A stretch of 64,000 nucleotides of DNA from positions 2,208,001-2,272,000 of the forward strand of contig NZ_JAQNDL010000001.1 in the NCBI RefSeq assembly GCF_028368995.1, in the 5' to 3' direction. Source of the stretch: Nannocystis bainbridge. GTDB taxonomy: Bacteria; Myxococcota_A; Polyangia; Nannocystales; Nannocystaceae. The translations under genes and the position numbers were made by a program. A model generated the notes under the pieces. That model was not told the DNA's origin. It ran no database searches and was given only the letters and a program-made list of their open reading frames with translations. This document shows, piece by piece, positions 1,892 through 64,000 of the stretch (the stretch's first letter is position 1; the number at the start of each line of letters is the position of its first letter).

Positions 1892-2541
1892 CAGACCTTA
1901 GGCACCGCATGCCCGTGCCGAACAACCTCCAGGCCCGGCCGCTGCGCGCCGTCCGCGATGCGCAGGTGTTCGCCCGGGCGCGCCTGCCCTCGCGCCACGG
2001 CGAGTTCGAGATCGTGTCGTTCATCGACGACGTCGGCCGCACGCTCGACGACGTGGCGATCGTGCGCGGCGACGTCCGCGGCCGCGTCGAGGTGCCGACG
2101 CGGATCCACTCCGAGTGCCTGACAGGCGACGTGTTCGGCTCGTTCCGCTGCGACTGCCGCGACCAGCTCGAGCTGGCGCTGCAGCGGATCGCCGGCGGCG
2201 ACGCGGGCATCATCCTGTACCTCCGCCAGGAGGGCCGCGGGATCGGCATCGCCCAGAAGATCCGCGCCTACCACCTCCAGGAGCAAGGCCTCGACACCGT
2301 CGAGGCCAACCTCCACATGGGTTTCGATGATGACCTGCGCGACTACTCGGTCGCGGCGGCGATGCTGCGCGCGCTCGAGGTCGGCTCGGTCGTGCTGCAC
2401 ACCAACAACATGCGCAAGATCGCCGGCCTGCAGCAGGGCGGGGTCGCGGTGACCCGCCGCGAGCCGCTGATCGCCGAGGCCCGCGAGCACAACCGCCGCT
2501 ACCTGGCGACCAAGCGCGACAAGAGCGGTCACCTGCTCTGA
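1888..2541 (+). CDS. ribA: GTP cyclohydrolase II
   Basis: RIHSECLTGDVFGSFRCDCRDQL, YLRQEGRGIG, DTVEAN, TNN motifs. Alternative start ATG at 1909. Confidence 0.93.
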   Translation: MTDLRHRMPVPNNLQARPLRAVRDAQVFARARLPSRHGEFEIVSFIDDVGRTLDDVAIVRGDVRGRVEVPTRIHSECLTGDVFGSFRCDCRDQLELALQRIAGGDAGIILYLRQEGRGIGIAQKIRAYHLQEQGLDTVEANLHMGFDDDLRDYSVAAAMLRALEVGSVVLHTNNMRKIAGLQQGGVAVTRREPLIAEAREHNRRYLATKRDKSGHLL

Positions 2542-2619
2542 GGGACATGTCTGTTCGGGCATGGCCTCTGCGCCATGTCCGATCGGACATTTCCCCGCGG
2601 ACATGCCCCATCGAACATC
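2532..2619. repeat. Phased 14-bp array of TGTCC-N4-GGACA-like units (7 cores)
   Basis: CCTG/CATG/CATT/CATC cores at 2532, 2546, 2560, 2574, 2588, 2602, 2616. Perfect unit TGTCCGATCGGACA at 2576-2589. Confidence 0.85.
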
Positions 2620-2673
2620 CGGGACGCGCGGCGGCCGCTTGTGCGGCGCGGCCGCCGCGGATACCGTGGCTGC

Positions 2674-3093
2674 ATGACGGACGCTGCCATCTCCGACGCC
2701 GAGGCGATCGCCATCCTGGGCGACGCCTTCGTCGAGCCGATCGTCGTCGCCATCGCCGAGCCCGACGCGTGGTGGGGCCAGCCGGAGGTGACGCTGCGCT
2801 TCCGCGTAGAGCCGGTCGAGGACGCCGGCTGGGCCGACTTCAAGCGCGAGCTCGACACGCACGGCCTCGGCCGGACGCGGACCGGCCAGTGGATCGAGCT
2901 GGTGCCGCGCGGCACGACCGTCTCGCGCGCGCGCTACCAGGCGTTCGCGCTCGGCCTGCGCGACGCGATGCCGGCGATCTTCGTCCGCCTCGGGCCGCAC
3001 GACGAGGACCCGGCGCACGCCTTCCTGGTCGCGACCCTGCGCGACGCCTCGCTCGTCACGCGCGAGGAATTCGCCCGCGCCATGCGCGGCTGA
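2674..3093 (+). CDS. Hypothetical protein (139 aa)
   Basis: ATG at 2674 (MTDAAISDAEAIAILGD...), GC3-rich codon usage, no recognisable family. Confidence 0.65.
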   Translation: MTDAAISDAEAIAILGDAFVEPIVVAIAEPDAWWGQPEVTLRFRVEPVEDAGWADFKRELDTHGLGRTRTGQWIELVPRGTTVSRARYQAFALGLRDAMPAIFVRLGPHDEDPAHAFLVATLRDASLVTREEFARAMRG

Positions 3094-3130
3094 CCCCGCG
3101 GCCAGCCGCGGCTTGTTCGTCGCCCGCGAC

Positions 3131-3338
3131 GCCTCGCGCGGTCGCCTGCGCCCTGCCTCGCACGGGCGCGCGAGCCCACGGCTGCCTCGCGCGGTCGCCT
3201 GCGCCTCCCCGGGCGCGCGAGGCCACGACTGCCCCGCGCGGTCGCCTGCGCCCTGGCTCGCGTGGGCGCGCGAGCCCACGGCTGCCTCGCGCGGTCGCCT
3301 GCGCCCTGCCTCGCCGGGCGAGCCCGCGGCTGCCTCGA
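3131..3338. repeat. REP-like tandem repeat, 4 copies of about 50 bp
   Basis: Core gcctcgcgcggtcgcctgcgcc repeated at about 3131, 3184, 3231 and 3284. Confidence 0.8.
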
Positions 3339-5995: not shown

Positions 5996-6403
5996 ATGAA
6001 TTACTCGCGCGCCCACACCCTGTTCACCGACCTTCGTACGTTGATGTTCGCCCTCGTCCTCGCGCCGCTGGCGGCCGCGGGTTGCGGCGGCGGCGAGGGC
6101 AAGGACGACGCCGGCGACGGCCCCGAGATCGACTGCAGCACCGGGACGACGCCGAAGTTCTCGGAGATGACGGCCGTGTGGGGCAAGTGCACCACCTGTC
6201 ACGCCTCGACCCTGAGCGGGGCGAGCCGCGTGAACGCGCCCCCGGGCGTCGACTTCGACGTCTACGCCGCCGCCAAGACCCACGCCCAGACCGCCATGCA
6301 CGAGGTCTACGAGGGCGAGATGCCGCCCGCCGGCCTGCCCGCGCTGTCCACCGAGGAAGAGGATCAGCTGTTCCGCTGGGCCAGCTGCGGCACCCCCGAG
6401 TGA
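5996..6403 (+). CDS. Monoheme cytochrome c lipoprotein
   Basis: Lipobox LAAAGC, CTTCH heme motif, EMPP distal Met ligand. Confidence 0.85.
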   Translation: MNYSRAHTLFTDLRTLMFALVLAPLAAAGCGGGEGKDDAGDGPEIDCSTGTTPKFSEMTAVWGKCTTCHASTLSGASRVNAPPGVDFDVYAAAKTHAQTAMHEVYEGEMPPAGLPALSTEEEDQLFRWASCGTPE

Positions 6404-6494
6404 CGTGCCCGCAGGGACATGCCCCGAAGGGCATGTCCCTCTCGACATGTCATCGAGGACATGTCTATGAGGGCATGTCCTCGATGACATGTCC
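6404..6494. repeat. Phased 14-bp array (7 cores) between convergent genes
   Basis: CGTG at 6404 then CATG at 6418, 6432, 6446, 6460, 6474, 6488: exact 14-bp period. Confidence 0.9.
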
Positions 6495-6510
6495 TCAGCG
6501 ACCGCTCGGG

Positions 6511-6849: not shown

Positions 6850-6868
6850 GATGGCGCGCTCCTTCCAC

Positions 6869-6909
6869 GCGTCGTCTTGTCCTCACCGGGTACGGCGCAC
6901 CTCGTCCGG
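6869..6909 (-). ncRNA. Guanidine-III (ykkC-III) riboswitch
   Basis: Minus strand reads CCGGACGAGGTGCGCCGTACCCGGTGAGGACAAGACGACGC, nearly identical to the ykkC-III aptamer as I recall it. It sits just before the GGAAGGAG RBS of sugE. Confidence 0.9.
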
Positions 6910-7061
6910 GCCCGCGAAGCGGGCGAGCTTCGGGTCAGCTTAGCCGCTCCCCCGTGGCGGGCCCGGCGGGGACGCGTGAGCCAACTCCGGCCCCCGCCGT
7001 CCCACCTGTCCTTTTGCGCAGGTCTTTCGCGCCTGGCGGCCGGGCCGCGGCGCGTGGGCGA

Positions 7062-8242: not shown

Positions 8243-9214
8243 TCAGGCCGCGCGACGGACCAGGTGGACCACCGCGAAGCGGGCCGCGTCGTCGGTCCAC
8301 GCCTGGGTCAGCGTCAGACCTGCGCTGGAGGACATGTCCGAAAAGCCATCCAGCGTATACTTGTGCGACAGCTCGGTCAGGATCGACTCGCGGGCGCGGA
8401 AGCTGAAGCTGCGGCCGCCGACCCCGACGACCTGGTCGATCTTGCTGACCAGGTGCATCTCGATGCGGCTGGCGGCCTCGTTGAACACGGCGCGGTGGGC
8501 GAAGCGGCCCGGCTGGAACTCACCGCCGAGCTCGCTGTTGATGCGGTGGAGCAGGTTGAGGTTGAACGCCGCGGTCACCAGGTCGCGGTCGTTGTAGGCG
8601 GCCTCGAGCACCGACTTCGACTTGACCAGGTCGATGCCGACCAGCGCGCCCTCGCAGCCGGGCGCGCGGGCGATGTTTCGCAGCAGCGCGGTCGCCTCGC
8701 TCGGGTCGAAGTTGCCGATCGTCGAGCCCGGGAAGTACACCAGGCTGCGGCCGAGCGCCCCGACCGGCAGGGCGAACGGGCGCGTGAAGTCGGCGTGCAG
8801 CGGCAGCACCTTGAGCTTCGGGTACTCGGCCTGGATCGCCGCGCTGGCGGCCAGCAGCGGCTTCTCCGACACGTCGACCGGCACGTACGCGGTCGCGTCG
8901 AGGTGGTCGAGCAGCAGCCGGGTCTTGATGCTCTCGCCGCTGCCGTACTCGACGATGATCCGGCGCGGGCCGACGGCGGCCGCCATCTCCATCGCGTGGT
9001 CGCCGAGGATCTCGATCTCCGCGCGGGTCAGGTAGTACTCCGGGGTCTCGCAGATCGCCTCGAACAGGTGCGAGCCGCGGGCGTCGTAGAAATACTTGGA
9101 GGGCAGGCGCTTGACCGGGCGCGACAGCCCCTCGATCACGTCGGCGAGGAACCCGTCGGCTGGCGCCTGCGTCGCCTCGTCATCGCGCGGGCGTTGGTGG
9201 AGCGGTCGCATCAT
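8243..9214 (-). CDS. egtD: L-histidine N-alpha-methyltransferase
   Basis: KRLPSKYFYDARGSHLFEAICETPEYYLTRAE, EYGSG, FPGSTIGNF, AYND..VTAAFNLN, RIEMHL, TELSHKY. ATG overlaps the egtB stop. Confidence 0.93.
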   Translation of the reverse strand: MMRPLHQRPRDDEATQAPADGFLADVIEGLSRPVKRLPSKYFYDARGSHLFEAICETPEYYLTRAEIEILGDHAMEMAAAVGPRRIIVEYGSGESIKTRLLLDHLDATAYVPVDVSEKPLLAASAAIQAEYPKLKVLPLHADFTRPFALPVGALGRSLVYFPGSTIGNFDPSEATALLRNIARAPGCEGALVGIDLVKSKSVLEAAYNDRDLVTAAFNLNLLHRINSELGGEFQPGRFAHRAVFNEAASRIEMHLVSKIDQVVGVGGRSFSFRARESILTELSHKYTLDGFSDMSSSAGLTLTQAWTDDAARFAVVHLVRRAA

Positions 9215-10449
9215 GCATCCTTGGTGAGACGGATCCCCGTGAACGGCCACCGCGCCCGGGGCGGAAAGAAATTGCGGTAGCTGGCACGCAAATGATCCCG
9301 CGGGGAAGCGCACGAACCGCCGCGCAGCACCATCTGGTTCGACATGAACTTGCCGTTGTATTCGCCGAGCGCGCCCGCCGGCGGGTGATAGCCGGGGTAC
9401 GGCAAGTACGCGCTCGCGGTCCACTCCCACACGTCGCCGAACAGCTGCGCCGGCCGGGGCTCGGCCTGCGGCGGCGCGTCCGCGACGGTCGGGTGGAGGC
9501 GGCCCGAATCGACGAAGTTACCGGCCACCGGCGCGCCCTCGGCCGCCGCTTCCCACTCGAACTCGGTCGGCAGGCGGGCGCCGGCCCAGCGGGCGAACGC
9601 GTCGGCCTCGTAGTGCGACACGTGGACCACCGGCGCGTGCGGGTCGAGCGGGCGCGGCCCGCCGAGCGTCATCTGCCACCATGTCCCCTGGGACATGTAC
9701 CAGTAGAGCGGCGCCGTCCAGCCCTCGGCCTGCGCCTGGGCCCAGCCGTCGGCCAGCCACAGCGTGCTGCGGCGGTAGCCGCCGTCGGCCACGAACTCCG
9801 CGTACTCCGCGTTGGTCACGCAGCGCGACGCCAGCGCGTGCGGCCGCAGCAGCGTCTGGTGGCGCGGGCCCTCGTTGTCGAAATGAAAGCCCGCGCCGGC
9901 GTTGCCCACCTCGCGCAACCCGCTCGGCCCCGGGCACCAGCGCAGCGGCGCCGCCGGTCGCGACGACGGCGGCGCCGCCTCCGCCCGCAGCCCCGGCCGC
10001 AGCGGGTTCTGGGCGTACAGGTGCAGCAGGTCCATCAGGATCAGCTCCTGGTGCTGCTGCTCGTGCTCGAGCCCGAGGCGGACCCGCTCGACCAGCCACG
10101 CCGGCCCGCCGCGGGCCAGCAGCTCGAGCATCGCCGCGTCGACGTGGGTCCGGTACTGCAGCACCTCGGCCCCGGTCGGCCGCGTCAGCAGCCCGCGGCG
10201 CGGCCGGCTGAACTGCGGGCCCACCGACTCGTAATACGAGTTGAAGAGGACCTCGAACTGCGGGTGAAACGGGCGGTAGCCGGGGTCGGCCGGGCCGAGC
10301 ACGAACGTCTCGAAGAACCACGTCGTGTGCGCCAGGTGCCACTTGGCCGGGCTCGCGTCCGGCATGCTCTGGACCGCGAGGTCCTCCGCGGGCAGCCCCG
10401 CGACCAGCCCCTCCGTGGCCGCGCGCACCCGGGCGTAGGCCGCCTCCAC
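9211..10449 (-). CDS. egtB: Ergothioneine biosynthesis sulfoxide synthase
   Basis: QSMPDASPAKWHLAHTTWFFETF, HEQQHQEL iron-binding His, FGE-type C-terminus (GDVWEWT, YNGKFM, RGGS). Confidence 0.93.
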   Translation of the reverse strand: MEAAYARVRAATEGLVAGLPAEDLAVQSMPDASPAKWHLAHTTWFFETFVLGPADPGYRPFHPQFEVLFNSYYESVGPQFSRPRRGLLTRPTGAEVLQYRTHVDAAMLELLARGGPAWLVERVRLGLEHEQQHQELILMDLLHLYAQNPLRPGLRAEAAPPSSRPAAPLRWCPGPSGLREVGNAGAGFHFDNEGPRHQTLLRPHALASRCVTNAEYAEFVADGGYRRSTLWLADGWAQAQAEGWTAPLYWYMSQGTWWQMTLGGPRPLDPHAPVVHVSHYEADAFARWAGARLPTEFEWEAAAEGAPVAGNFVDSGRLHPTVADAPPQAEPRPAQLFGDVWEWTASAYLPYPGYHPPAGALGEYNGKFMSNQMVLRGGSCASPRDHLRASYRNFFPPRARWPFTGIRLTKDA

Positions 10450-11427
10450 TCAGAACCTCCCGCCGAGCGCGACCCCGAAGCCCTGGCCCGAAGGACCTGC
10501 CCCCAGGTGCAGCTGACCGCGGCGGGCCGTCTTGCCCACGCCGGTGTCCTGCCGCTCGAGCGTCTTCAGCTCGGCGCGCGACGACAGGGCGTCGACCGCC
10601 ATGAACGCCGAGCCGGCCAGCCCGAGCCCGCCCGCCAGGCTGGTGACGCCGACGAAGCGCAGCGGCTCCTTGTCGCCGTACTGACCGATCAGCCACAGCG
10701 CGCTGAACACCGCCGCCCCGGCGTAGAGGGCGTAGCCGAGCCCGCGGGCCCACAGCTTGCCGCGCACGCGCAGGTCCCGGCCGGTGCTGGCGCCGCCGAT
10801 GGCGACGATCGGCGTGCCGAGCAGCGTCGTCGTCAGGCCGAGGCTGGCGTACATGAAGTGCTTCATGCCGTAGTCGCTCGGGTCGGTCTTGCCGGCGCGA
10901 CCGGCGTCGTAGAGCACGCCCATCAGCATGCCGACCGCCGAGAAGCCGACGCCGACGCCGGCGCCGACGCGGGCCCACTCCGACGGCGTCGACTCGCGGC
11001 CCTCGACGCACTCCCACGAGTTCTCGTGCACCGCCGTCACCGCCCCCAGCGGAGCCTGCTGCGCGCCGTTCTTCGGGTGCACGTAGTAGACCGCCGACTT
11101 GTCGGCGCGGGTCAGCGTCACGCACTCGCGCCCCGCGGTGCCGAGGATCACCAGCACCCGCCGCCCGGCCAGCCGCTGCCACTGCGCGTCGCTCACCGGC
11201 GCGGGGTAATAGCGCGGCATGTTGTCCGCGGCGGCCGGCGCCTCCGCGGCGGTCGCGTCACCGGCGACCGCGTGGTGGATCAGCGTGACATGACCTTCGG
11301 GCAAGGTCCGATCGGACATGTCCGAAGCGCCATCCACGATCACCGCCTCGGGCCCCTCGTAGCTGCGCAGGCCGGCGGGCGGGGTGAGGGCGAGCGACAC
11401 GACGGCGAGCGCGGCGAGCATGGCCAC
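10450..11427 (-). CDS. Hypothetical exported/membrane protein
   Basis: N-terminal signal peptide, several Gly-rich hydrophobic segments, C-terminal GVALGGRF. Tightly coupled between murF and egtB. Confidence 0.7.
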   Translation of the reverse strand: MAMLAALAVVSLALTPPAGLRSYEGPEAVIVDGASDMSDRTLPEGHVTLIHHAVAGDATAAEAPAAADNMPRYYPAPVSDAQWQRLAGRRVLVILGTAGRECVTLTRADKSAVYYVHPKNGAQQAPLGAVTAVHENSWECVEGRESTPSEWARVGAGVGVGFSAVGMLMGVLYDAGRAGKTDPSDYGMKHFMYASLGLTTTLLGTPIVAIGGASTGRDLRVRGKLWARGLGYALYAGAAVFSALWLIGQYGDKEPLRFVGVTSLAGGLGLAGSAFMAVDALSSRAELKTLERQDTGVGKTARRGQLHLGAGPSGQGFGVALGGRF

Positions 11428-12834: not shown

Positions 12835-13202
12835 GAGGAGACCGTTAGCACCCCGACGCGGCCGCGCGCCACTCTTCGGCAGGGCCCGCCGCGGCGGCTG
12901 CGCAGCGGGTCGGCGGTGCAGCGCGGACACGGGGTGCCCGGGGGCCCGGGGACCGCGACGGGGCGAGCGTCCCCCGGTCGTTCGGCGCGGTCGCGGCGGG
13001 CGCCGACCGGCGTTTGTCCCATCACATGTCTTACGGGACATGTCCGATCGGACCTGTGATTGCGCGGCCCGGCGTTCGGCGGCCCCGCGCGCGGGCCCGG
13101 CTCGCGTTCGCCCGCGCCGATGCTCGCGCGTCGGCGCGCGCCTGCGTCGCAGCCGTCACGCGGGCGTGGCCGCGTCGACGCCGGGTCATGCTAGCCTCGT
13201 GG

Positions 13203-13728: not shown

Positions 13729-13947
13729 GGTGTCCCGAGGGACAGGTCGCACCGGCCGGGCCCGGCGAACGCGGCGGCCGTCTCGGCGCAGGCCCGCCGC
13801 GCCTGCGCGCGGACCATTCACCGCATCCTGTCCCGAAGGCCAGGTCGCCGGCCGGGCCCGGCGAACGCGGTGCCCTCTCGGCGCAGGCCCGCCGCGCCCG
13901 CGTGCGCCGGGGCCATCCTCCACATCCTGTCCCGAAGGCCAGGTCGC
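13729..13947. repeat. About 98-bp tandem repeat (2 full copies plus 1 partial), each headed by the 14-bp palindrome
   Basis: tgtcccga(g/a)gg(ga/cc)caggtcgc..ccggccgggcccggcgaacgcgg..ctcggcgcaggcccgccgcgcc at about 13729 and 13827; partial copy at 13926. Confidence 0.8.
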
Positions 13948-15124: not shown

Positions 15125-15437
15125 GGGCAAGACGATCACCTCGTTCGAGACGGCGGTCGCCCAGTGTCGCGGCCTCGGCCCGGCTTGTCCAGGCAGGCGC
15201 GTGTCGGCCACGCGCGCAGGTATTCGCACCGCGCTCCGGCGCTCGCCGATGCGCGCGATGAACCCGCCGGGGCTCGCAATTGCGACCCGTCACCCGTCGC
15301 GTCGCAAGACGCGAAGCCCGCGCCGCGGCGCGCCGCCGATCGCTCGTCGCTCGCGGCGCGCGAGCTCGTCGTCGCGACGCGAAGGCGCGGCTCATACGTG
15401 ATCGCGTCGAGCGACCGAGCTCGTCGGTGCATCTGTG

Positions 15438-15483
15438 CATGGTCGAAACGACATGTCCAAAAGCACATGTACAAAAAATCATG
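15438..15483. repeat. Phased 14-bp array (4 CATG cores)
   Basis: CATG at 15438, 15452, 15466, 15480. Confidence 0.8.
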
Positions 15484-15676
15484 CCGATCGCGTCCCTCAG
15501 CCGCTCGCCGACGGCCAGCTCCTGGACGACGGACGTCGCACCGGGGGGCATCCGACCGCTCCTTCGATCACGAACGCCGCGACCCTCTCGCCAGAGCGCC
15601 GCGCTCGTGCGAATCGATCGCGCGGACTCGCACGAAACGCGCCCCAGGCCGGCTTGCGACGTGCGCTGGCTCAACT

Positions 15677-20829: not shown

Positions 20830-20833
20830 CGAC

Positions 20834-22600
20834 GTGAACCCCGGCGAGACCTCCGAGTGGCAGGACCACGCCCGCCTGGCCGGCCGGCGCCGGCTGGCGC
20901 AGGCGATCGGCGAGCTCAGCTTCGAGGGGCTGCTGCACCCGCGTCCGCTCGGCGACGACCGCTGGGCGCTCGATCTGTCCGATGGGACATGTTATTCGTT
21001 CACAGGGCGGCCGAGCGCGTGGGGCGGGCTGCACGTCGAGGCCGACGGCATCACCCGCCGCGAAGGCGACGGCGACGAGCAACCGGCCGCCTCGCCGGTG
21101 CAGCTGATCCTCGACGCCCGGGCCGCGCTCGGGGTCGGCGCCGACGCGCTGGCCGAGTTCCTCGAGGAGCTCCACAACAGCCTGCTGGCCGAGACGGAGC
21201 AGTGCGCGCGCCTGGCCGAGCTGCGCGCGCCGCAGCTGGCCGCGCTGTCGGGCGCCGCGCTCGAGCAGCACCTCGACGGCCACCCCAAGCTGGTGGCGCA
21301 CCGCGGCCGCGTCGGCTGGGGCGTCGCCGATCTCGCAGCCTACGCGCCCGAGTCCGCCAGCCGCGTGCAGCTGCACTGGCTCGTCGTCGCGCCCGAGCTG
21401 GCCCGCTGCAGCGGCGCCGCCGGTCCGGGCCAGCTGCAGTTGGTCGACGAGAGCTGCGACGCCGAGGCCCGGGCCCGCCTGCTCGAGCAGCTGCACGCGC
21501 GCGCCCCCGGGCTCGCGCGCGGCGGCGTGCTGGTGCCGGTGCACCCGTGGCAATGGCAGCACCACCTGGCCGCCCAGTATATCGACGCGCTGACGCGCGG
21601 CGCGATCGTCTCGCTCGGCCGCTTCGGCGACGCCTACGCGCCGCGCCTCTCGATCCGCACCCTCGCCGACGCTTCGCGACCCGAGCGCGCCGACGTCAAG
21701 CTGGCGCTGACGATCCTCAACACCTCGTGCTGGCGCGGCCTGCCCGGCGAGCACATCGAGCAGGGCGTCGGCATCGGCGCGGCGCTGCGGCGGCGCGTCG
21801 CCGGCGATCCTCTGCTGCACGGCGTGCACGTGCTCGCCGACCTCGGCGGCGTGCACGTGCCGCAGCCCGAGTTCGAGGCCCTCGGCGCCGCGCCCTACCG
21901 CCTGCGCGAGCAGCTGGGGGCGCTGTGGCGCGAGAGCGCGACGGCTCGCCTCGGCGCCGACGAGCGCGAGGTCGCGGCCGCGGCGCTGCAGCAGACCGAC
22001 CTCCGCGGCGAGCCGCTGCTGCGCACATGGGTCGAGCAGAGCGGCGCCTCGATCACGGCGTGGTTGACCGCGCTGTTCGAGCGCACCGCGGCGCCGCTCT
22101 ATCACTTGCTGTGCCGCCACGGCATCGGCGTGATCGCCCACGGGCAGAACCTCGGGCTGGTGCTGCGCGCGGGAATGCCGACGGCGATCCTGCTGCGCGA
22201 CGTGCACGGCGACGTGCGCCGGGTGGCCGACGACCGCTTCGATCACGAGCCGGCGCTGCGCGGGCTCAAGGCGCTGCCGGCCGGCCAGATCGTGCACGAC
22301 CTCTACACCGGCTATTTCGTCAGCGTGCTGCGGTTCGTCGCGCCGCTGTGCGAGCGCAGCTTCGGCCTGCCGGAGCGCGAGTTCCTGCGGCTGCTGTCCG
22401 CGGTGCTCGCCGCCTACTGTGATTCGGTGCCGCACGAGGCGACGGCGCGCTTCGATCTGTTCCGTCCGGAGATGGAGCGGATCTGCCTCAACCGCGCCCG
22501 TCTGCGGATCGGCCACGGCGGCGGCGCCACGCGCCCGCTGCCCGCGCTCGGTCCGCCGCTGCATAACCCGTTGGTGAGGGAGGTGGACGATGAACGATGA
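20834..22600 (+). CDS. iucC: IucC-type NIS siderophore synthetase
   Basis: DGHPKLVAHRGRVGW, VPVHPWQW, SIRTL, VKLALTILNTSCWRGLP, LWRES, IAHGQN, ICLNR. Confidence 0.9.
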   Translation: MNPGETSEWQDHARLAGRRRLAQAIGELSFEGLLHPRPLGDDRWALDLSDGTCYSFTGRPSAWGGLHVEADGITRREGDGDEQPAASPVQLILDARAALGVGADALAEFLEELHNSLLAETEQCARLAELRAPQLAALSGAALEQHLDGHPKLVAHRGRVGWGVADLAAYAPESASRVQLHWLVVAPELARCSGAAGPGQLQLVDESCDAEARARLLEQLHARAPGLARGGVLVPVHPWQWQHHLAAQYIDALTRGAIVSLGRFGDAYAPRLSIRTLADASRPERADVKLALTILNTSCWRGLPGEHIEQGVGIGAALRRRVAGDPLLHGVHVLADLGGVHVPQPEFEALGAAPYRLREQLGALWRESATARLGADEREVAAAALQQTDLRGEPLLRTWVEQSGASITAWLTALFERTAAPLYHLLCRHGIGVIAHGQNLGLVLRAGMPTAILLRDVHGDVRRVADDRFDHEPALRGLKALPAGQIVHDLYTGYFVSVLRFVAPLCERSFGLPEREFLRLLSAVLAAYCDSVPHEATARFDLFRPEMERICLNRARLRIGHGGGATRPLPALGPPLHNPLVREVDDER

Positions 22601-26029: not shown

Positions 26030-27154
<1,125 letters not shown>

Positions 27155-30056: not shown

Positions 30057-31469
30057 TCAGGACATGCTCGGAGAGACAGGTACTCGCGGGCGCCCGGGGA
30101 ACATCGCTTCGACCTCGCGCGCGACCGCCAGCACCCGATCCTCGCGGCCGAGCGGGCCGACCAGCTGGACCGCGATCGGCAGGCCCTCGCGGGAGCTCGC
30201 CACCGGCAGCGCCACCGCCGGCTGACCGGTGACGTTGAACGGCGCCGTGAACGCCCCGTAGACCGCGTAGGCGCGGAACACCGCCTCGCCGTCGGGTCCG
30301 CGCCACGCCCCGATCGGCGGCGGAGGTCCCACCACTGCGGGCGTCAGCACCAACTCGGCGTCACCGACCCACGCCAGCACCCGCTCGCGCAGCGCCTCGA
30401 ACGCCGCGTGGGCCAGCGCCGGCGAGTTGCGGCGACCGGCCTCGACGAGCCAGCGCGTCGCCGGCTGCAGCCGGTCCGCCCGCACCCACGGCACCTCGGA
30501 CAGGAGGCGCTGGTAGATCGGCAAGAAATCGTCGACCGACCCCCGCGCCATCTCGACCTCCTCGACGCGGTGGCCCGCGCCGGCGAGCGCCTCGCCGACG
30601 GACCGCGTCGCCGCGGCCCACTCTGGCGCGGCGGCGGCCAGCGGCGAGTCGACCGCCAGCTTGATCCGCAGGCGCGGCGACGGCTCCAGCATCTGTCCGT
30701 AAGGACATGGCGGAGGGGACAGCCAGTGCGGCCGCCCGACGGTGAGCCCGGCCATCACGTCGAGCAGCGCCGTCGCGTCGGCGACCGAGCGCGCCAGCGG
30801 CCCGCAGGTGTAGAGCAGCGTGCGGTCGTCGCGACCGAACGCGTTGGCGACCCGCCCGCGCGACGGCTTGAGGCCGACGAGGCCGCAGAACGCGGAGGGG
30901 ATCCGGATCGAGCCGGCGCCGTCGCTGCCCTGGGCCCACGGCAGCAGGCCAGCGGCGACCGCCGCGCCCGAGCCCCCGCTCGAGCCGCCGGCCGTGCGCG
31001 CCGGGTCCCACGGGTTGCGCGTCGGCGGGTGCGTGTCAGGCTCCGTCACCGGCAGCGCCCCGAGCTCCGACGTCGCCAGCTTGCCGAGCACCACGAGGCC
31101 CGCCGCGCGCAGCTTGGCCACCGTCGCGTCGTCGATCGGCGAGTACAGCGGCAGCACCCCGCGCGAGCCCATGCGGGTCCGCGAGCCGCGGACGAAATTG
31201 AGGTCCTTGACGCCGATCGGCACCCCGAGCAGGGGCGGGACCGAGTCGAGCGCGCCGCGCCGCGCCGCGCGGTCGAGCGCATCGTCGGCGGCCCGGGCCG
31301 CTCGCCGCGCCCGCGCGTCGAACACCGACACGAAGGCCGACAGCGCGGGGTTGTGCGCGGCGATACGGTCCAGGTACAGCGCGACGAGCTCCTGGCTGCG
31401 GATCTCGCGGCGCCGCAACAGGCGCGCCTGTTCCAGGCCAGACACGTGGAGGAGCTCGGCGAGCGACAT
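30057..31469 (-). CDS. Amidase signature family enzyme
   Basis: GVPIGVKDL, TRNPW..RTAGGSSGGSGAAVAAG, GSDGAGSIRIPS, GLKPSRGRV, FTAPFNVTGQPA. Confidence 0.92.
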   Translation of the reverse strand: MSLAELLHVSGLEQARLLRRREIRSQELVALYLDRIAAHNPALSAFVSVFDARARRAARAADDALDRAARRGALDSVPPLLGVPIGVKDLNFVRGSRTRMGSRGVLPLYSPIDDATVAKLRAAGLVVLGKLATSELGALPVTEPDTHPPTRNPWDPARTAGGSSGGSGAAVAAGLLPWAQGSDGAGSIRIPSAFCGLVGLKPSRGRVANAFGRDDRTLLYTCGPLARSVADATALLDVMAGLTVGRPHWLSPPPCPYGQMLEPSPRLRIKLAVDSPLAAAAPEWAAATRSVGEALAGAGHRVEEVEMARGSVDDFLPIYQRLLSEVPWVRADRLQPATRWLVEAGRRNSPALAHAAFEALRERVLAWVGDAELVLTPAVVGPPPPIGAWRGPDGEAVFRAYAVYGAFTAPFNVTGQPAVALPVASSREGLPIAVQLVGPLGREDRVLAVAREVEAMFPGRPRVPVSPSMS

Positions 31470-34435: not shown

Positions 34436-34694
34436 GGCGCAGACGCTACCAGATTTGCCGCCCGACCTCAGCAGGAGACCCCGACCGGTCGAGAAAACTC
34501 CGGCCGCGGCCCGGTCGCTCGCCGTGGTTTTGCCGCCGAACGCCGCCACCGGCCTCGCAGCGGCCTTACGGGCCCGCGGGGACTCGAGCCCTCGCGCCTC
34601 GCTCCGGCCGCCATTCCACGGATCCGGCCGGTCAAAACGAGCCCGGGAGATCGCACATCCGCGCATCACCCCCCACCGCGGCGGCGCCGCCCCG

Positions 34695-34968
34695 CCTGTC
34701 CGAACGGACATGCCCCGAACCCGCGGCCGCCACACTCGTGCAATGGGACACACGTCCCGCGAGACATGGGCTCGCCCGCGCGGCCTCGTGCATCTTGCTC
34801 TCGGGACATGTCCCATTCGCCATGTTTTTTAAGACTTCCGCAGCATCGACGACATGTCCTTCACGACATGTCCATTCTGCCATCTGACCGCACTCCTGCC
34901 TCGTGCCGCCCCGCGACGCGACCCCGGAGCGCACCGCCTGTCCCGAGGCACATGTCCCAAACGCCAGA
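34695..34968. repeat. Cluster of five short 14-bp-phased arrays in a divergent promoter region
   Basis: Cores at 34695/34709, 34737/34751/34765, 34807/34821, 34853/34867/34881, 34937/34951/34965. Perfect TGTCCGAACGGACA at 34697. Confidence 0.85.
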
Positions 34969-40720: not shown

Positions 40721-40817
40721 TCGACCGCGCGACTCTCGGTATTTCCTCTACGTATTTCCCCGAATGTGGGCAGGCGACCGCGAGCCGGCGCACCGGCTCG
40801 CGACGACATGTCGGCGC

Positions 40818-43856: not shown

Positions 43857-44440
43857 CAGACCGGCTCCTTCTGGGCCACACCCTGGCGGTATCGCACCAG
43901 CTTGATCGCCACCAGCCCGTTCTCCTCCTGCACCTCGAGCGCGTCGAGCGGCCGCGGCGACGGCCCGGCCTCGACCGCGCCGTCGAGCGCGAACGCCGAG
44001 CGGTGGCACGGGCACTTGAACTTCTGCGCCTCGGGGTCGTAGTCGACCGCGCAGCCGAGGTGCGGGCACACCGTCGAGAACGCCTGCAGCGCCCCGTCGC
44101 GCTCGAGCACCCAGCACGAGCCCAGCTTCACGTCGGGCGTCTTGTTCCACGCGTCGACCTTGTCGGCGTGGAGCTCGACCCGCACCGGCACCGAACCGGC
44201 GAACGCCGAGCGCTTGCCCGCTGGCAAGAACGCCCCCTCGCCGCCCTTCGACCCGGTCGGGAACAGCAGATAACCGACCGCCGGCACCACCGGCACCGCC
44301 GCCAGCCCCAACCCCAATGCCCCGATCCCCAGCTTCAACACCCCGCGACGGCCGGCGTCCGGCTCCCCTCCTGACCCAGAGGACATGTCCCGAGATTCAG
44401 CTTCGTGCTCCGCTCCGTGACCGCGTTCTCGGCTCGACAT
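43856..44440 (-). CDS. Rieske [2Fe-2S] subunit
   Basis: Tat motif RRGVLK, CPHLGC, CPCHRS, GPSPRPL. Alternative start ATG at 44386. Confidence 0.92.
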   Translation of the reverse strand: MSSRERGHGAEHEAESRDMSSGSGGEPDAGRRGVLKLGIGALGLGLAAVPVVPAVGYLLFPTGSKGGEGAFLPAGKRSAFAGSVPVRVELHADKVDAWNKTPDVKLGSCWVLERDGALQAFSTVCPHLGCAVDYDPEAQKFKCPCHRSAFALDGAVEAGPSPRPLDALEVQEENGLVAIKLVRYRQGVAQKEPV

Positions 44441-53730: not shown

Positions 53731-53868
53731 CGGCGCCGCATCCTAGCACGACCGCCGGCGGGCCTGTCTGGGCCCGCCACCGCCCCGGCGAGCCCTCCGA
53801 GCCCCGTCCTGCGCGCCGGCGAGCCCCCGCGCGCCCTCGCCCCGCTCGCCCGGGCGAGGCCCGAAGGC

Positions 53869-54147
53869 CATGTCCCTCGAGACACATCATCTCCCGCGCA
53901 GTCGGGGCGATGACTCGAAGAATTATCCCTCGCCCTACCATACACATGTCCCCGAGACCATGTCTCGAAGGACATGTCATCCTACCCCCTCCTCACCCCG
54001 CGCACCCCATGCCCCTTGCGACCTGGGACGTTGGCGACGCGCCCGACGTCGCGAATCACATGTCCCATGCGACATGTGATTCGGACCGACACCCACGTCT
54101 CCACCTCCCAAAGTACATGTCCTTCGCGACATGTCCCGAGAAACATC
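53869..54147. repeat. Cluster of 14-bp-phased arrays
   Basis: Cores at 53945/53959/53973, 54008/54022, 54059/54073, 54116/54130/54144, plus 53869. Confidence 0.85.
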
Positions 54148-54148: not shown

Positions 54149-57634
<3,486 letters not shown>

Positions 57635-60515: not shown

Positions 60516-61344
60516 GGACCTGCTCCTCGGGCCAGCTCGCCACCGACTCGAGCCCGCCGGCCAGCGCGATCTCGGCGACGAAGCCGAGCCGCTCCTTCGC
60601 GCGGGTCGGGTCGAGCACGTAGCGCATCACCTCGCTGCCGCGGTACGGCAGCGCACCGAGGTCGACCAGCTCGGTGCGACCGACGCGCCACGCCAGCGCG
60701 CGCACCACCATCGCCACCGCCGACTCGATCCCCGTGCCCGCGTTGTAGACCCCGACCGGCGCGTCGGCCTCGGTGCAGCGCGCCAGCAGGCGGGCCACGT
60801 CGCGCACGTGCACGAAATCGCGGGTCTGCTCGCCGGGCGTGCACGCGAACCGCTCGCCGGCCCGCAGCGCCGCCAGCAGCGACGGGATCAGCATCCCTGG
60901 CCGCTGACCGGGCCCGTAGACCACCCCGGGCCGCACGATCACCGCCTCGATCCCCAGCCTCGCCGCCGCCGCGCGCACCTCGTCCTCGCCGCGGATCTTC
61001 GCCCGCGCGTACGGCGTGTCGCCGAGCCGCTGCGCGTCCTCGACGAACGGCACCGGCTGCAGCCCGTACACCTCGCCCGAGCTGACGTAGACCACCCGCC
61101 GGGCCCCGCGGGCCGCCGCGATCGCCAGCGCCCGCAGCGGCGCCGCCACGTGCGCTTCAGTCAACGCCGCCTCGCCGCCCTCGCGGCCGCCGCCGGCCCA
61201 GATCAGCGCATGAACTTCAGGACATGTCCGTTCCGCCAGGCCCTCGCGGCCGAACGCGACCACCGGCGCCGCCGCCAACGCGTCCGCCGCGGCGCGGCCG
61301 ATGAAGCCCCCGCCGCCGCCGATCGCCACGGCGGTGACCGTCAC
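60508..61344 (-). CDS. NAD-dependent epimerase/dehydratase
   Basis: [35 protein letters not shown]. Confidence 0.87.
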
Positions 61345-62318
61345 GCCGCCCCCAGCAGCTCGCGATACCAGGCGATCGTGCGCTGCAGACCTTCGTCGAG
61401 CCCGTGGCGGGGGCGCCAGCCGAGCACCCGCCGCGCCTTCTCGGACGCCAGGAATTGCTCGCGGATCTCCCGCGACGCCTCGCCGAGGATCACCGGCGCC
61501 AGCGCGCGTGCGTCCATGTGGCCGAGCACGCGGTCGACGATCTCGAGCACGCTCTGCGGCCGCTCGTCGGAGAAGTTGAACGCCTCGCCGACCACCTCGG
61601 GCCGGTCCATCTGCTCGGCCAGCTCGAGGTACGCCGCCACCGCGTCGCCGACGTACACGTAGTCGCGTACGAACGTCCCGTCGCTGCGCACCACCGGCCG
61701 CTCGCCGCGGACCACCGAGCGCACCGTGCCCGGGATGATGCGGTTCCAGTTGAGGTCACCCGGGCCGAACAGGTTGCCGCAGCGGGTCACGCACACCGGC
61801 AGCTGGTAGCTGTCGAAGTAGCAGCGCGCGATCAGGTCGGTGCAGCTCTTCGAGCAGTCGTACGGGAACCGGCCCTCGAGCGGCGACGCCTCGGTGTACG
61901 GCAGCACCGGCTGGTCGCCGTAGGCCTTGTCCGAGCTGGCGACCACGACCCGCCGGACCTTGCGCTCGTTGCGTCGGCACGCCTCGAGCAGGTTGTACGA
62001 GCCGCGCACGTTGGCCTCCCACGTCGAGAGCGGGTTGCGCCCGGCGGTGCCGACGATCGTCTGCGCCCCGAGGTGGAACACCGCCTCGATCTCGTGCTCG
62101 TTGATCACCCGCTCGAGCAGCGGGTAGTCCTCGAGCTGGCCCTGCACGCTGACGCAGCGGCGGTCGAGCCCGCGCCCGTGGAACAGGCTGCGCGGGACCC
62201 CGTCGCGGACCAGGCACACCGGCGCCGCCCCGCGGGCCAGCAGCTCCTCGACCATGTGGCTGCCGAGCAGCCCGGTCGCCCCGGTGACGAGCACGTTCTT
62301 GTCTGTCCAAAAGGACAT
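61341..62318 (-). CDS. NDP-sugar 4,6-dehydratase (CDP-glucose 4,6-dehydratase-like)
   Basis: [40 protein letters not shown]; adjacent to rfbF. Confidence 0.85.
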
Positions 62319-62319
62319 A

Positions 62320-63093
62320 TTACCAATTCCTCCACGGCGCCGCGCCGCCGGCCCACGCGCGCTCGAGCAGCTGCAGGTCGCGATAGGTGTCCATGCACTG
62401 CCAGAAGCCCTCGTGCCGGTGCACGCGCAGTTGGTCGTCGGCGGCCAGCCGCTCGAGCGGCTCGCGCTCGAGCGTGCAGGCGTCGTCGTCGCGCACGTAC
62501 TCGAGCATCGCCTTGCGGAACACGAAGAAGCCGCCGTTGATCCACCCCTCGGTGACCGCCGGCTTCTCGCTGAAGCTGTCGACGCGCTCGCCGTCGGTCA
62601 GCAGCTCGCCGAAGCGGCTCTGCGGCCGCACCCCGGTGACCGTCCCGATCTTGCCGTGGCTGCGGTGGTACGCCAGCAGCGCCTTGAGGTCGACGTCGCA
62701 CAGCCCGTCGCCGTACGTCAGCATGAAGTCGTCCTCGCCGAGGTGGCGGCCGACCCGGTGCAGCCGCGCCCCGGTCATCGCCTCCTCGCCGGTGTCGACG
62801 CAGGTCACTCGCCAGCGCGCCTCGGGCGGGTTGTGCAGCGTCAGCTTGCCGCCCTGCCCGAGGTCGACCGTGAAGTCGCCCGACAGCGCCGCGAAGTCGA
62901 GGAAGTAGCGCTTGATCACCTCGGCCCGGTAGCCGAGGCACAGCACGAAGTCGTCGAACCCGTGCGACGCGTAGTAGCTCATGATGTGCCAGAGGATCGG
63001 TCGCCCCGCGACCTCGATCATCGGCTTGGGACGCAGCTCCGTCTGCTCTTTGAAGCGGGTCCCCTTGCCCCCGCACAGGATGACGACCTTCAT
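62320..63093 (-). CDS. rfbF: Glucose-1-phosphate cytidylyltransferase
   Basis: [53 protein letters not shown]. Confidence 0.93.
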
Positions 63094-64000
63094 CGCGACC
63101 TCCCCAGGACCTCGTCGTAAACCGCCTGGAGGCGCTCGCGGTGGGCCTCCACGCTGTATTCTGCCTGCATCTTGCGCCGCCCGGCCTCGCCGAGGGCGCG
63201 CCGCTCGTCTGTACTTCGGGACAGGCGCACCAGGTGCCCCGCCAGCCCGGCGACGTCGCGCTCGCCCGCGAGCAGCCCCGTGACCTCGTGCTCGACCTGC
63301 TCCGGGATCCCCGCGTGCCGCGTCGCCACGATCGGCAACTCCGCCGCCGAGCCCTCGCAGATCACCGTCGGCGTGCCCTCCTGGTCGCCGTCGCGGGCCG
63401 TCCGGCTCGGCACCAGCAGCACGTCCGCGTCCTGCATGGCCGCAGGCACCGCCGTCGCCGGCGCCGCCCACGTCACGTCGAGCCGCAGCGACTCGGCCAG
63501 CGCGCGCAGCGGCCCGGCCCCCGCCGAACCTGTCCCAAGGAGCATGACCTCGAGGTCAGCCCCAGCCGCACGCGCTGCGGCGCACGCTCGCAAGCCATCA
63601 TCAAAACCCTTCTTCTCGACCTCGCGCCCGACCATCAGCACCCGCGTGCGCGCCCGCGTGGCCCGCGGCGCCGGCTGGAACCGCGACAGGTCGACGCCGA
63701 GCGGCACCACGCGGATCTTGCTCGCGGGGCAGCCCTGGGCCACCAGTTGGTCGCGCATGTGCTGCGACAGCGCGAGGAAGCGGTCGCCGCGGCGGAACAG
63801 CGCCGGCGCCAGCGCGGCGAAGTGCCAGTAGGCCGGCAACAGCCGCAGCCGCGAGCCGCGGACCGTCACGTCCTTGCCGTAGAAGCTGGTCACCAGCGGC
63901 AGCCCGCAGCGGGCCGCTGTCAGCAGCGCGTGCGCCCCCGTCTGCCCGAGGTGCGCGTGGATCAGCGACACCCCGCGGGCCCACCGCGACAGCCGCGGCG
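63090..64000 (-). CDS. GT4 glycosyltransferase (5' end outside window)
   Basis: IHAHLG, VGREVEKKG, PSRTARDGDQEGTPTVICEG, ATRHAGIPE. Confidence 0.88.
   Translation of the reverse strand, partial: PRLSRWARGVSLIHAHLGQTGAHALLTAARCGLPLVTSFYGKDVTVRGSRLRLLPAYWHFAALAPALFRRGDRFLALSQHMRDQLVAQGCPASKIRVVPLGVDLSRFQPAPRATRARTRVLMVGREVEKKGFDDGLRACAAARAAGADLEVMLLGTGSAGAGPLRALAESLRLDVTWAAPATAVPAAMQDADVLLVPSRTARDGDQEGTPTVICEGSAAELPIVATRHAGIPEQVEHEVTGLLAGERDVAGLAGHLVRLSRSTDERRALGEAGRRKMQAEYSVEAHRERLQAVYDEVLGRSR

What the first reader, a model, noticed from the sequence alone, without database searches (positions are those of the whole stretch)
2532..63560. Window-wide 14-bp palindrome TGTCC-N4-GGACA forming exactly phased arrays: candidate binding code for an unknown DNA-binding protein
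Seen: perfect TGTCC-N4-GGACA at 2576, 9682, 13731, 20976, 30694, 34697, 55414 and 62304. A rough independent-base estimate at about 73% GC gives only about 0.05 expected copies in 64 kb. Degenerate copies occur at more than 30 loci, about one per 1-2 kb. Adjacent units abut (GGACA|TGTCC), so CATG/CCTG/CAGG cores fall exactly 14 bp apart: 7 cores at 2532-2616 and 6404-6488, 4 cores at 15438-15480 and 11289-11331, and clusters at 34695-34968 and 53869-54147. The spacers differ between units, so these are not slippage repeats or copies of one REP element; only the dyad and the phase are kept. Inference: a dimeric protein binds cooperatively side by side along DNA, in the manner of a nucleoid organiser or a parS/SlmA/Noc/MatP-like positional code, or a global regulator. 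I do not recognise the motif as a described site.
Basis: partly seen in the sequence, partly recalled or inferred. Interest (0 to 1): 0.88.

Follow-up and report, generated by a model that had tools for sequence, protein, structure and literature searches.

The report
Nannocystis hairpin repeats after genes
The phased 14-base palindrome is real and belongs to an undescribed family of small hairpin-forming repeats in Nannocystis myxobacteria, found mainly just after genes, so it resembles the REP elements of other bacteria more than a chromosome-positioning code.

Summary
TGTCC-N4-GGACA occurs 8 times against 0.01 expected. CATG spacings peak at 14, 28, 42 and 56 bp.

A scan of 185,579 species genomes with the perfect two-unit form found 78 stretches. 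75 are from Nannocystis or close relatives.

Three results argue against side-by-side binding of a dimer to double-stranded DNA.
- **Location.** Perfect doublets lie between convergent gene ends (43 of 75) or after stop codons in co-directional gaps (22 of 75). Only 2 lie between divergent genes.
- **Covariation.** The arms flanking the 4-base loop covary. There were 40 compensated double changes against 16.6±3.7, reached by 0 of 2000 shuffles. The outer arms covary too.
- **Strand asymmetry.** Mismatches favour G·U on the sense strand, 45 against 18.

The window's arrays fold into stems of 12 and 23 bp.

I therefore read it as a REP-like hairpin module. It most likely acts as a 3'-end stem-loop in transcripts and has an unknown sequence-specific reader.

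It is unlike REPs in one respect. The unit is about 40-fold enriched inside coding sequence, where it is made by codon choice and not by insertion. No transposase partner was seen. A DNA-binding reader remains possible.

The parts
2527..2624 (.). Array of 7 phased units (4 exact CATG cores). It starts at the stop codon of the GTP cyclohydrolase II gene (ends 2541) and lies upstream of the next + strand gene. Units 1-2 fold against units 3-4 as one long imperfect hairpin.
   Evidence: RNA fold -51 kcal/mol, z -2.97.
6399..6496 (.). Array of 7 phased units between convergent gene ends (+ gene stops at 6403, SMR gene on the - strand stops at 6511). It folds as a 12-bp-stem hairpin plus a 23-bp-stem hairpin on either strand.
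   Evidence: RNA fold -70.4 kcal/mol, z -9.4; other strand -69.6, z -7.4.
8330..8339 (.). Single perfect decamer inside the EgtD-like methyltransferase coding sequence, read in frame as G|GAC|ATG|TCC.
9675..9700 (.). Perfect TGTCC-CCTG-GGACA with partly conserved outer halves, inside the EgtB coding sequence. There is no insertion relative to solved EgtB proteins. Thr is encoded by ACA.
11284..11325 (.). Three phased units (one perfect decamer at 11314) near the 5' end of the ORF 10450-11427 on the - strand.
13020..13061 (.). Three phased units (perfect decamer at 13036) between the divergent Mur-ligase-like gene and the HNH gene.
   Evidence: The fold is not significant (z -1.17).
13731..13947 (.). 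Perfect TGTCC-CGAG-GGACA 4 nt after the HNH gene stop. It opens a 99-bp tandem repeat (2.2 copies), and each copy begins with a unit of this kind.
15433..15488 (.). Four phased CATG units with A-rich spacers (GAAA, AAAA, AAAA) in a divergent intergenic region.
   Evidence: Fold z -1.67.
20969..20994 (.). Perfect TGTCC-GATG-GGACA inside the IucA/IucC-family gene 20834-22600.
30687..30712 (.). Perfect TGTCC-GTAA-GGACA inside the amidase gene, within the span covered by the Pfam amidase domain.
34690..34957 (.). Cluster in a divergent region: 34697 (perfect 14-mer), 34804 (perfect decamer), 34850/34864 (a direct 14-bp duplicate pair) and 34948.
   Evidence: Fold of 34835-34885: z -3.86.
53864..54140 (.). 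Cluster in a co-directional gap on the - strand. The pairs 54113/54127 and 54056/54070 lie 13-84 nt beyond the stop of the kinase gene. Single units lie at 53866, 53942 and 53970.
   Evidence: Fold z -2.85.
55407..55430 (.). Perfect TGTCC-GTTC-GGACA inside the Ser/Thr kinase gene 54149-57634.
62304..62317 (.). Perfect TGTCC-AAAA-GGACA at the 5' end of the epimerase gene 61341-62318 on the - strand.
   Evidence: gene.
40804..40813 (.). Single degenerate unit (CGACATGTCG) between convergent gene ends (40720 and 40818).
44381..44390 (.). Single perfect decamer near the 5' end of the Rieske-protein ORF.
61220..61229 (.). Single perfect decamer in ORF 60508-61344 on the - strand.

Best explanation
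This is a family of short hairpin-forming repeats specific to the Nannocystis lineage. It resembles REP/BIME elements.

**Anatomy (shown).** The module is 14 nt: a 5-bp stem (TGTCC/GGACA) around a free 4-nt loop. Modules abut without a linker, which creates the GGACATGTCC junction and the 14-bp phase. Two junction decamers around one loop give a 24-nt hairpin with a 10-bp stem. Longer arrays fold into stems of up to 23 bp.

**Growth of arrays (inferred).** Because the decamer is its own reverse complement, neighbouring copies are direct repeats as well as inverted repeats. Arrays can therefore grow and shrink by 14-bp slippage and stay in phase.

**Function (inferred).** The elements sit mainly a few tens of nucleotides after stop codons, especially between convergent genes. 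I infer that they act in the transcript as 3'-end stem-loops: a barrier to 3' exonucleases, a hairpin-only pause or termination signal, or both.

**A reader (inferred).** One particular sequence is kept, where any stable hairpin would serve as a plain 3'-end stem-loop. This implies a further sequence-specific reader or copying mechanism, which is not identified here.
For: **Lineage.** The perfect doublet occurs in 78 stretches of the species-genome collection. 64 are named Nannocystis, 9 come from a Nannocystaceae MAG, 2 from a Myxococcales MAG, and 3 are unrelated isolated hits.

**Location** (own gene calls).
- Of 75 perfect doublets, 43 are in convergent gaps, 22 in co-directional gaps, 2 in divergent gaps, 5 are 'coding' and 3 lie at a locus edge.
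- After removing the gaps that carried the selecting doublet, density is 3.2 per kb in convergent gaps (19 of 53 gaps occupied), 1.15 in co-directional gaps (26 of 181), 0.57 in divergent gaps (5 of 78) and 0.16 in coding sequence.
- In co-directional gaps, 54 of 68 doublets are nearer the upstream stop codon. The median is 41.5 nt from the stop against 212.5 nt to the next start.
- Convergent gaps with the motif have a median length of 97 bp, and the array sits about 21-22 nt from each stop.

**Pairing.**
- In 198 distinct CATG-N10-CATG instances, the inner 3 bp show 40 compensated double changes against 16.6±3.7. None of 2000 shuffles reached 40.
- The outer 3 bp show 27 against 13.3±3.2, again 0 of 2000.
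- The 34 instances carrying compensated changes come from many loci and have different loops and flanks.
- Within a single decamer, only 23 of 533 deviations stay complementary.

**Strand asymmetry.** G·U outnumbers A·C on the sense strand by 45 to 18 in 62 distinct doublets (binomial p 0.0009). The base composition of the gaps is not skewed towards G and T.

**Folding.** See the two large arrays.

**Conservation.** In a three-species alignment, 20 of 20 core bases are kept while 3 of 4 loop bases and much of the flanks differ. At 30 non-selected intergenic sites, core identity is 0.974 against 0.825 for the flanks.
Against: - The 14-mer is strongly enriched inside coding sequence: 40 observed against 0.97 under synonymous-codon shuffles in 471 kb. 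5 of the 40 come from the selecting doublets. In EgtB the unit arose by substitution and not by insertion. Classical REPs are extragenic, and a 5-bp hairpin inside a gene has no obvious 3'-end role.
- Most deviations are not compensated. In the broader pair test, 42 of 270 were compensated against 26.2±4.5. The consensus itself is therefore the main thing conserved.
- No U-run follows the hairpins, so they are not canonical intrinsic terminators.
- Loops show no strand-specific GNRA or UNCG signature.
- In the window, 5 of 8 divergent gaps carry a site, against 5 of 78 in the loci. The 3' bias is therefore not absolute.
- Partner-shuffled doublets already give a G·U to A·C ratio of 1.99. The asymmetry lies in which bases deviate, and a transcription-linked mutation bias could produce it.
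- No Y1 transposase (RAYT) was seen in 48 window ORFs or in 71 of the 143 genes next to perfect doublets.
- Gene calls and start codons are my own GC3-based estimates.
Confidence: 0.5

Rival explanations
1. TGTCC-N4-GGACA is a duplex operator for a dimeric DNA-binding protein, for example a helix-turn-helix dimer on a 5-4-5 site. The protein loads side by side at 14-bp steps and acts as a nucleoid-associated protein, a roadblock or an organiser at gene ends.
For: - Spacing is strict. Inside genes N4 occurs 40 times, N3 once, and N5, N6 and the swapped half-sites never. The pentamer alone is not enriched (722 against 705).
- Short-range neighbour distances are only 14 and 28 bp.
- The consensus is kept across species while the loop is free.
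- Copies inside genes are made by codon choice.
- Most deviations are uncompensated.
- Sites occur in 5 of 8 divergent gaps of the window.
Against: - Arm covariation keeps pairing. A dimer reading two half-sites does not predict this.
- G·U outnumbers A·C on the sense strand.
- Density is lowest in divergent, promoter-bearing gaps of the loci and highest between convergent stop codons.
- No candidate protein was identified.
- CdbA of M. xanthus is a nucleoid-associated protein with orthologs in every fully sequenced Myxococcales genome. According to passages of PMC7156744, it binds a GC-rich direct repeat with a 4-bp gap, not an inverted repeat. Its logo is in a figure that I could not see.
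Confidence: 0.2
2. A genome-wide signature motif maintained by a drive rather than by a local function. One form is an uptake-signal sequence like DUS/USS, where biased DNA uptake plus recombination spreads it and inverted copies are tolerated as 3' hairpins. Another is a HIP1-like iterated palindrome tied to a methylation or repair system.
For: - Density is about one site per 1.7 kb in the window (37 in 64 kb).
- The motif is present in both coding and non-coding DNA, with copies inside genes created by synonymous or near-neutral choices, including the rare ACA codon.
- It is confined to one lineage.
- Paired copies sit after genes, as I recall for DUS and USS.
Against: - Covariation of non-consensus arms is not explained by an uptake or methylation signal.
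- The motif is palindromic and forms strict 14-bp arrays, unlike what I recall of DUS/USS or HIP1.
- Competence, uptake bias and methylation cannot be tested here.
Confidence: 0.15
3. A by-product with no function: a decaying selfish or self-propagating repeat. It would be made by 14-bp slippage between directly repeated decamers and by hairpin-templated correction of quasi-palindromes. It would be tolerated mainly where it does least harm, between convergent genes.
For: - Some neighbouring units are direct duplicates (34850/34864).
- Tandem Repeats Finder reports periods of 14 and 28 bp.
- Larger tandem duplications of 99-151 bp carry a motif copy in each repeat.
- Convergent gaps are the classical safe site for small repeats.
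- Templated correction would mimic covariation.
Against: - Cores are kept (20 of 20) where flanks and loop diverge between species. Core identity is 0.974 against 0.825 for flanks.
- The roughly 40-fold excess inside genes at the cost of rare codons is hard to obtain without selection or a directed process.
Confidence: 0.12

Closest known systems
REP / BIME / REPIN elements of Enterobacteria and Pseudomonas
   Same: - Short imperfect palindromes that fold into stem-loops.
- Lineage-specific consensus.
- Many dispersed copies, mostly after genes and between convergent genes.
- Occur singly, as inverted doublets and in clusters.
- The doublet is the commonest multi-unit form: 124 doublets against 34 longer chains. 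REPINs are likewise described as two inverted REPs (abstract of PMC3337134, seen in the listing).
   Different: - Each arm is itself a palindrome, so units abut in a strict 14-bp phase.
- The loop is only 4 nt and free to vary.
- There is no conserved flanking tetranucleotide.
- No RAYT transposase was seen.
- Copies are strongly enriched inside coding sequence, whereas REPs are extragenic by definition.
DNA uptake sequences (Neisseria DUS, Pasteurellaceae USS); properties recalled, not tested here
   Same: - A lineage-specific motif of about 10 bases at roughly one per kb.
- Present in genes through codon choice as well as between genes.
- Often found as inverted pairs that form hairpins after genes.
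   Different: - The motif here is a palindrome with a fixed 4-nt gap and forms phased arrays.
- Non-consensus copies keep pairing.
- Nothing is known here about competence or uptake bias in Nannocystis.
HIP1, the highly iterated palindrome of cyanobacteria (recalled)
   Same: A short palindrome that is hugely over-represented genome-wide, including in coding sequence, with no settled function.
   Different: HIP1 is an uninterrupted 8-mer. It is not known to form phased arrays, to concentrate at gene 3' ends, or to show stem covariation.
Intrinsic (Rho-independent) terminators
   Same: A G+C-rich stem-loop a few tens of nucleotides after the stop codon, shared by convergent genes.
   Different: - No U-run follows the stem.
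- One fixed stem sequence is used at many genes.
Tandem operator arrays of cooperative dimers (MetJ metboxes, omega heptads, FNR-type 5-4-5 sites); recalled
   Same: Palindromic units repeated head to tail in strict phase, and a 5-N4-5 geometry.
   Different: Those arrays sit in promoters or centromere-like sites and show no arm covariation. Here density is lowest in divergent gaps of the loci.

Membership tests
REP/BIME/REPIN elements | Short imperfect palindrome able to form a stem-loop, with pairing maintained. | tested here: met
   Folds. Covariation of the inner arms (40 against 16.6±3.7) and outer arms (27 against 13.3±3.2), each reached by 0 of 2000 shuffles.
REP/BIME/REPIN elements | Extragenic, mostly at gene 3' ends. 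| tested here: inconclusive
   There is a strong 3' bias: 65 of 75 perfect doublets lie in convergent or co-directional gaps, and 54 of 68 are nearer the stop codon. However, the 14-mer occurs 40 times against 0.97 expected inside coding sequence.
REP/BIME/REPIN elements | Many dispersed copies per genome. | tested here: inconclusive
   37 sites in 64 kb of the window, and 7-14 perfect doublets per cultured Nannocystis genome on many contigs. No whole genome was counted, so a figure in the thousands per genome is an extrapolation.
REP/BIME/REPIN elements | A cognate single-copy RAYT (Y1 HUH transposase) flanked by the repeats. | tested here: inconclusive
   No Y1_Tnp match in 48 window ORFs or in 71 of the 143 genes adjoining perfect doublets. 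The other 72 genes and the rest of the genomes were not scanned.
REP/BIME/REPIN elements | A conserved tetranucleotide beside the hairpin, as in E. coli REPs (recalled feature). | tested here: not met
   Flank profiles show only A/T next to the array and traces of a decayed further unit.
Intrinsic terminators | A U-run directly after the stem. | tested here: not met
   T stays at or below 40% at every one of the 20 downstream positions. It exceeds 30% only at isolated positions, and there is no run.
Positional codes (parS, Noc NBS, SlmA SBS, matS) | Sites confined to one chromosomal domain. | not testable with these tools
   Only one window and 8-kb loci are available. Positions relative to ori and ter are unknown.
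Positional codes (parS, Noc NBS, SlmA SBS, matS) | Match to the known consensus of one of these sites. | not tested
   From memory, none of these consensus sequences resembles TGTCC-N4-GGACA. No tool here holds them.
Promoter operators of a global regulator (FNR/CRP-type 5-4-5) | Sites lie upstream of regulated genes. | tested here: not met
   Divergent gaps have the lowest intergenic density in the loci: 0.57 per kb, with 5 of 78 occupied, against 19 of 53 convergent gaps. The window is an exception, with 5 of 8 divergent gaps occupied.
Uptake signal sequences (DUS/USS) | Biased uptake of DNA carrying the motif by a competent cell. | not testable with these tools
   This needs an experiment.
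Known RNA families (Rfam 15) | Match above the gathering score. | tested here: not met
   The only Rfam hit in the window is the guanidine-III riboswitch at 6866-6929.

The most novel reading that the evidence does not exclude
The 14-nt stem-loop is a genome-wide, sequence-specific hairpin code of the Nannocystis lineage. It is written into coding sequence by codon choice as well as into gene 3' ends. A still unknown protein reads it on RNA or single-stranded DNA. This would be a structured counterpart of HIP1 or DUS, whose reader could be a global post-transcriptional factor, an HUH-type enzyme or a replication or repair factor.
Probability: 0.22. Interest if true: 0.75.

Novelty: new variant of a known kind. 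Interest (0 to 1): 0.55.

Why it matters
Myxobacteria with 11-13 Mb genomes are mined for natural products, yet little is known about how their transcripts end or how their repeats arise. A single consensus hairpin shared by many gene ends would give a handle on 3'-end formation in a very G+C-rich lineage that seems to lack U-tract terminators.

The motif is also a ready marker for recognising Nannocystis DNA. The roughly 40-fold excess inside genes, bought with rare codons, is the puzzling part. If selection causes it, an unknown reader acts on thousands of sites per genome. If a drive causes it, this is a new case for the old question of how motifs such as HIP1 and DUS spread.

The self-complementary arm, which makes each unit both a direct and an inverted repeat, offers a simple mechanism for phased arrays. 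It could be tested by comparing array lengths between strains.

Tried and rejected
- **CdbA.** Passages of PMC7156744 describe a GC-rich direct repeat with a 4-bp gap and say that every fully sequenced Myxococcales genome encodes an ortholog. Neither fits a Nannocystis-only inverted repeat. The logo is in a figure or supplement that I could not see.\n- **RAYT transposase.** Looked for a RAYT or other transposase next to the perfect doublets. None was found among the 71 of 143 neighbouring genes scanned; they are unrelated housekeeping and signalling genes. The other 72 were not scanned.\n- **HNH gene as partner.** The HNH gene at 13203-13727 has motif copies on both sides. Only its HNH domain matches IscB/Cas9d models, well below their cut-offs. 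A single weak homologue appears in the loci (L056). Rejected for lack of support.\n- **U-tract terminator.** Rejected.\n- **Strand-specific stable tetraloops.** GNRA occurs 5 times against 2 on the other strand in co-directional gaps, and 8 against 7 in coding sequence. There is no signal.\n- **Inner versus outer halves.** Tested whether the halves next to the loop are better conserved than the outer halves in isolated pairs. The difference is small (0.75/0.71 against 0.65/0.70, n=57).\n- **Partner-shuffled null for the G·U bias.** It keeps the bias (ratio 1.99), so it is not a proper null. I rely on the 1:1 expectation and flag mutation bias as an alternative.\n- **Window against loci.** No alignment of 800 bp or more. 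The window's own genome was not identified, and its assignment to the Nannocystis lineage is inferred from the motif, G+C content and gene content.\n- **Three hits outside the lineage** (L010, L015, L065).

Full report
**1.

Dinucleotide shuffles give 0.01 per window, and 0 of 100 reach 8.

Read in the other register, the unit is a 10-bp palindrome, GGACATGTCC, followed by a 4-bp spacer. The decamer occurs 6 times exactly against 0.07 expected, and 29 times with at most one mismatch against 1.6.

CATG-to-CATG distances give 20, 10, 6 and 5 pairs at 14, 28, 42 and 56 bp. The background at other spacings is 0.75. Other palindromic tetramers show no such peaks.

The long arrays at 2527-2624 and 6399-6496 have seven phased positions each. 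A weight matrix finds 37 sites where an order-3 Markov model gives 5.2.

**2. Whose motif it is**

The window has myxobacterial gene content: Ser/Thr kinases with TPR or beta-propeller domains, an ADYC-domain protein, an ECF sigma factor and a cytochrome b/c fusion. Its G+C content is 72.5%.

- 64 are from named Nannocystis records (N. pusilla, punicea, exedens, radixulma, strain RBIL2 and MAGs).
- 9 are from a Nannocystaceae MAG and 2 from a Myxococcales MAG.
- 3 are isolated hits in unrelated bacteria.

No hit was titled with another Nannocystaceae genus. The window overlaps none of these loci, so assigning it to this lineage is an inference.

**3. Where the units lie**

I called genes in the window and in 75 loci with a GC3 and codon log-likelihood method. 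Start codons are approximate.

Of the 75 perfect doublets, 43 lie between convergent genes, 22 in co-directional gaps, 2 between divergent genes, 5 in called genes and 3 at a locus edge. Because the loci were chosen for a doublet, I removed the gaps that carried it. The result is below.

| Region | Sites per kb | Gaps occupied |
|---|---|---|
| Convergent | 3.2 | 19 of 53 |
| Co-directional | 1.15 | 26 of 181 |
| Divergent | 0.57 | 5 of 78 |
| Coding | 0.16 | not applicable |

In co-directional gaps, 54 of 68 doublets are nearer the upstream stop codon (median 41.5 nt) than the next start (212.5 nt). Convergent gaps with the motif have a median length of 97 bp, with the array about 21 nt from each stop.

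The window itself is less one-sided. It gives 3.9 per kb in convergent gaps, 1.8 in co-directional gaps and 3.0 in divergent gaps, with 5 of 8 divergent gaps occupied. I report this as evidence against a strict 3' rule.

**4. The units pair**

A palindromic decamer is its own reverse complement. Two decamers around a 4-nt spacer therefore form a hairpin with a 10-bp stem.

The array at 6399-6496 folds into a 12-bp stem and a 23-bp stem (-70.4 kcal/mol, z -9.4), and folds similarly on the other strand. The array at 2527-2624 folds units 1-2 against units 3-4 (z -2.97). Several shorter sites are not significant.

The key test is covariation. It used 198 distinct CATG-N10-CATG instances.
- The three base pairs next to the loop show 40 positions where both sides changed and pairing was kept. 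Partner shuffles give 16.6±3.7, and 0 of 2000 reach 40.
- The three outer pairs show 27 against 13.3±3.2, again 0 of 2000.
- The 34 instances involved come from many loci and have different loops and flanks, so they are not copies of one variant.
- Positions that are symmetric within one decamer stay complementary in only 23 of 533 deviations. A dimer on duplex DNA would treat these as equivalent.

A broader test was weaker but pointed the same way: 42 of 270 compensated against 26.2±4.5. It also shows that most deviations are not compensated.

In co-directional gaps, mismatches are G·U on the sense strand 45 times and A·C 18 times (62 distinct doublets, p 0.0009). The gaps are not G+T-rich. 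This fits selection on the transcript, although a transcription-linked mutation bias could imitate it.

No U-run follows the stems, and loops show no strand-specific tetraloop signature.

**5. The consensus is also kept**

In a three-species alignment of a convergent gap, all 20 core bases are identical, 3 of 4 loop bases differ, and the flanks are barely alignable in the most distant species. At 30 intergenic sites that were not used for selection, core identity is 0.974 against 0.825 for 60-nt flanks. Most of these come from one repeat-rich pair of loci.

Pairing alone therefore does not explain the family. A particular sequence is maintained.

**6. Copies inside genes**

In 471 kb of gene interiors, TGTCC-N4-GGACA occurs 40 times against 0.97 under synonymous-codon shuffles. 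5 of the 40 belong to the selecting doublets. The variants give:
- N3: 1 occurrence
- N5: 0
- N6: 0
- swapped half-sites: 0

The pentamer alone is not enriched (722 against 705).

Weight-matrix sites are 2.4-3 times above synonymous shuffles. The frames used are the ones that keep G or C at third codon positions, plus the rare ACA codon.

In EgtB the unit aligns without insertion to solved EgtB proteins. It spans a variable loop and the conserved G-T-W residues. This is unlike REPs. It recalls HIP1 or uptake sequences, whose properties I cite from memory.

**7. How arrays arise**

Neighbour distances below 32 bp are only 14 (40 cases) and 28 (9 cases). Chains contain 1 unit (126 chains), 2 (124), 3 (18), 4 (10), 5 (4) or 6 (2).

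Because the decamer is both a direct and an inverted repeat of its neighbour, slippage by 14 bp is expected. Some pairs look like fresh duplicates (34850/34864). Larger tandem duplications of 99, 125 and 151 bp carry a motif copy in each repeat. This part is inference.

**8. Verdict**

The best reading is a lineage-specific, REP-like hairpin module that acts mainly as a 3'-end stem-loop, with an unidentified sequence-specific reader or copying process (confidence 0.5).

A drive-maintained signature motif (0.15) and a functionless slippage product (0.12) follow.

No RAYT-type partner was seen in the limited gene sets examined. Rfam has no matching family. Five literature searches found no description.

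Noticed in passing
window 6866-6929 (-): A guanidine-III riboswitch (64.2 bits against a gathering score of 36) lies directly upstream of the small multidrug resistance family gene 6511-6849 (-). This is the usual pairing with a guanidine exporter. The 7-unit array lies just beyond that gene's stop codon.
   Followed up: partly
window 3131-3320, 5497-5727, 16756-17011, 23883-23985, 25715-25867: Longer tandem repeats with periods of 53, 64, 76, 39 and 72 bp (2-4 copies each, 76-91% matches), mostly between my gene calls (23883-23985 falls inside the call 23879-25729). They are unrelated in sequence to the 14-bp unit.
   Followed up: no
window 13731-13947: A 99-bp tandem repeat (2.2 copies) directly after the HNH gene. 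Each copy starts with a TGTCC-N4-GGxCA unit, so the motif marks the repeat boundaries.
   Followed up: partly
L016 3115-3610 and 5952-6184: A 151-bp tandem repeat (3.3 copies, 92% matches) re-copies the last codons of a gene together with a doublet. A 125-bp repeat also carries one decamer per copy. The motif may seed local duplications.
   Followed up: partly
L037 2980-3930 and L068 6880-7740: A second repeat family lies in a stretch of about 3.3 kb without a confident gene call. It consists of direct 14-mers GGGACCTGTCCCCA together with tandem modules of 36, 69 and 84 bp. Its core is the non-palindromic GGACCTGTCC. It may encode a Pro-rich repeat protein, but this was not resolved.
   Followed up: partly
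window 13203-13727 (+): A small HNH endonuclease gene has motif copies on both sides. It resembles IscB/Cas9d models only in the HNH domain and scores far below their cut-offs. No recurrent association was seen in the loci.
   Followed up: partly
window 15433-15488: In this array the spacers are GAAA, AAAA and AAAA. These are A-tracts at a 14-bp period in a genome of 72% G+C, which may bend the DNA.
   Followed up: no
window 1-29600: Cell-wall (dcw) genes are scattered: rsmH at 3-899, Mur ligases at 11431-13041 and 27162-28712, and mraY at 26006-27154. Between them lie ergothioneine genes (EgtD 8243-9430, EgtB 9211-10449) and an IucA/IucC siderophore cluster (18124-23882).
   Followed up: no
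window, whole: The strand composition is strongly skewed: C is 0.392 and G is 0.332 on the + strand.
   Followed up: no
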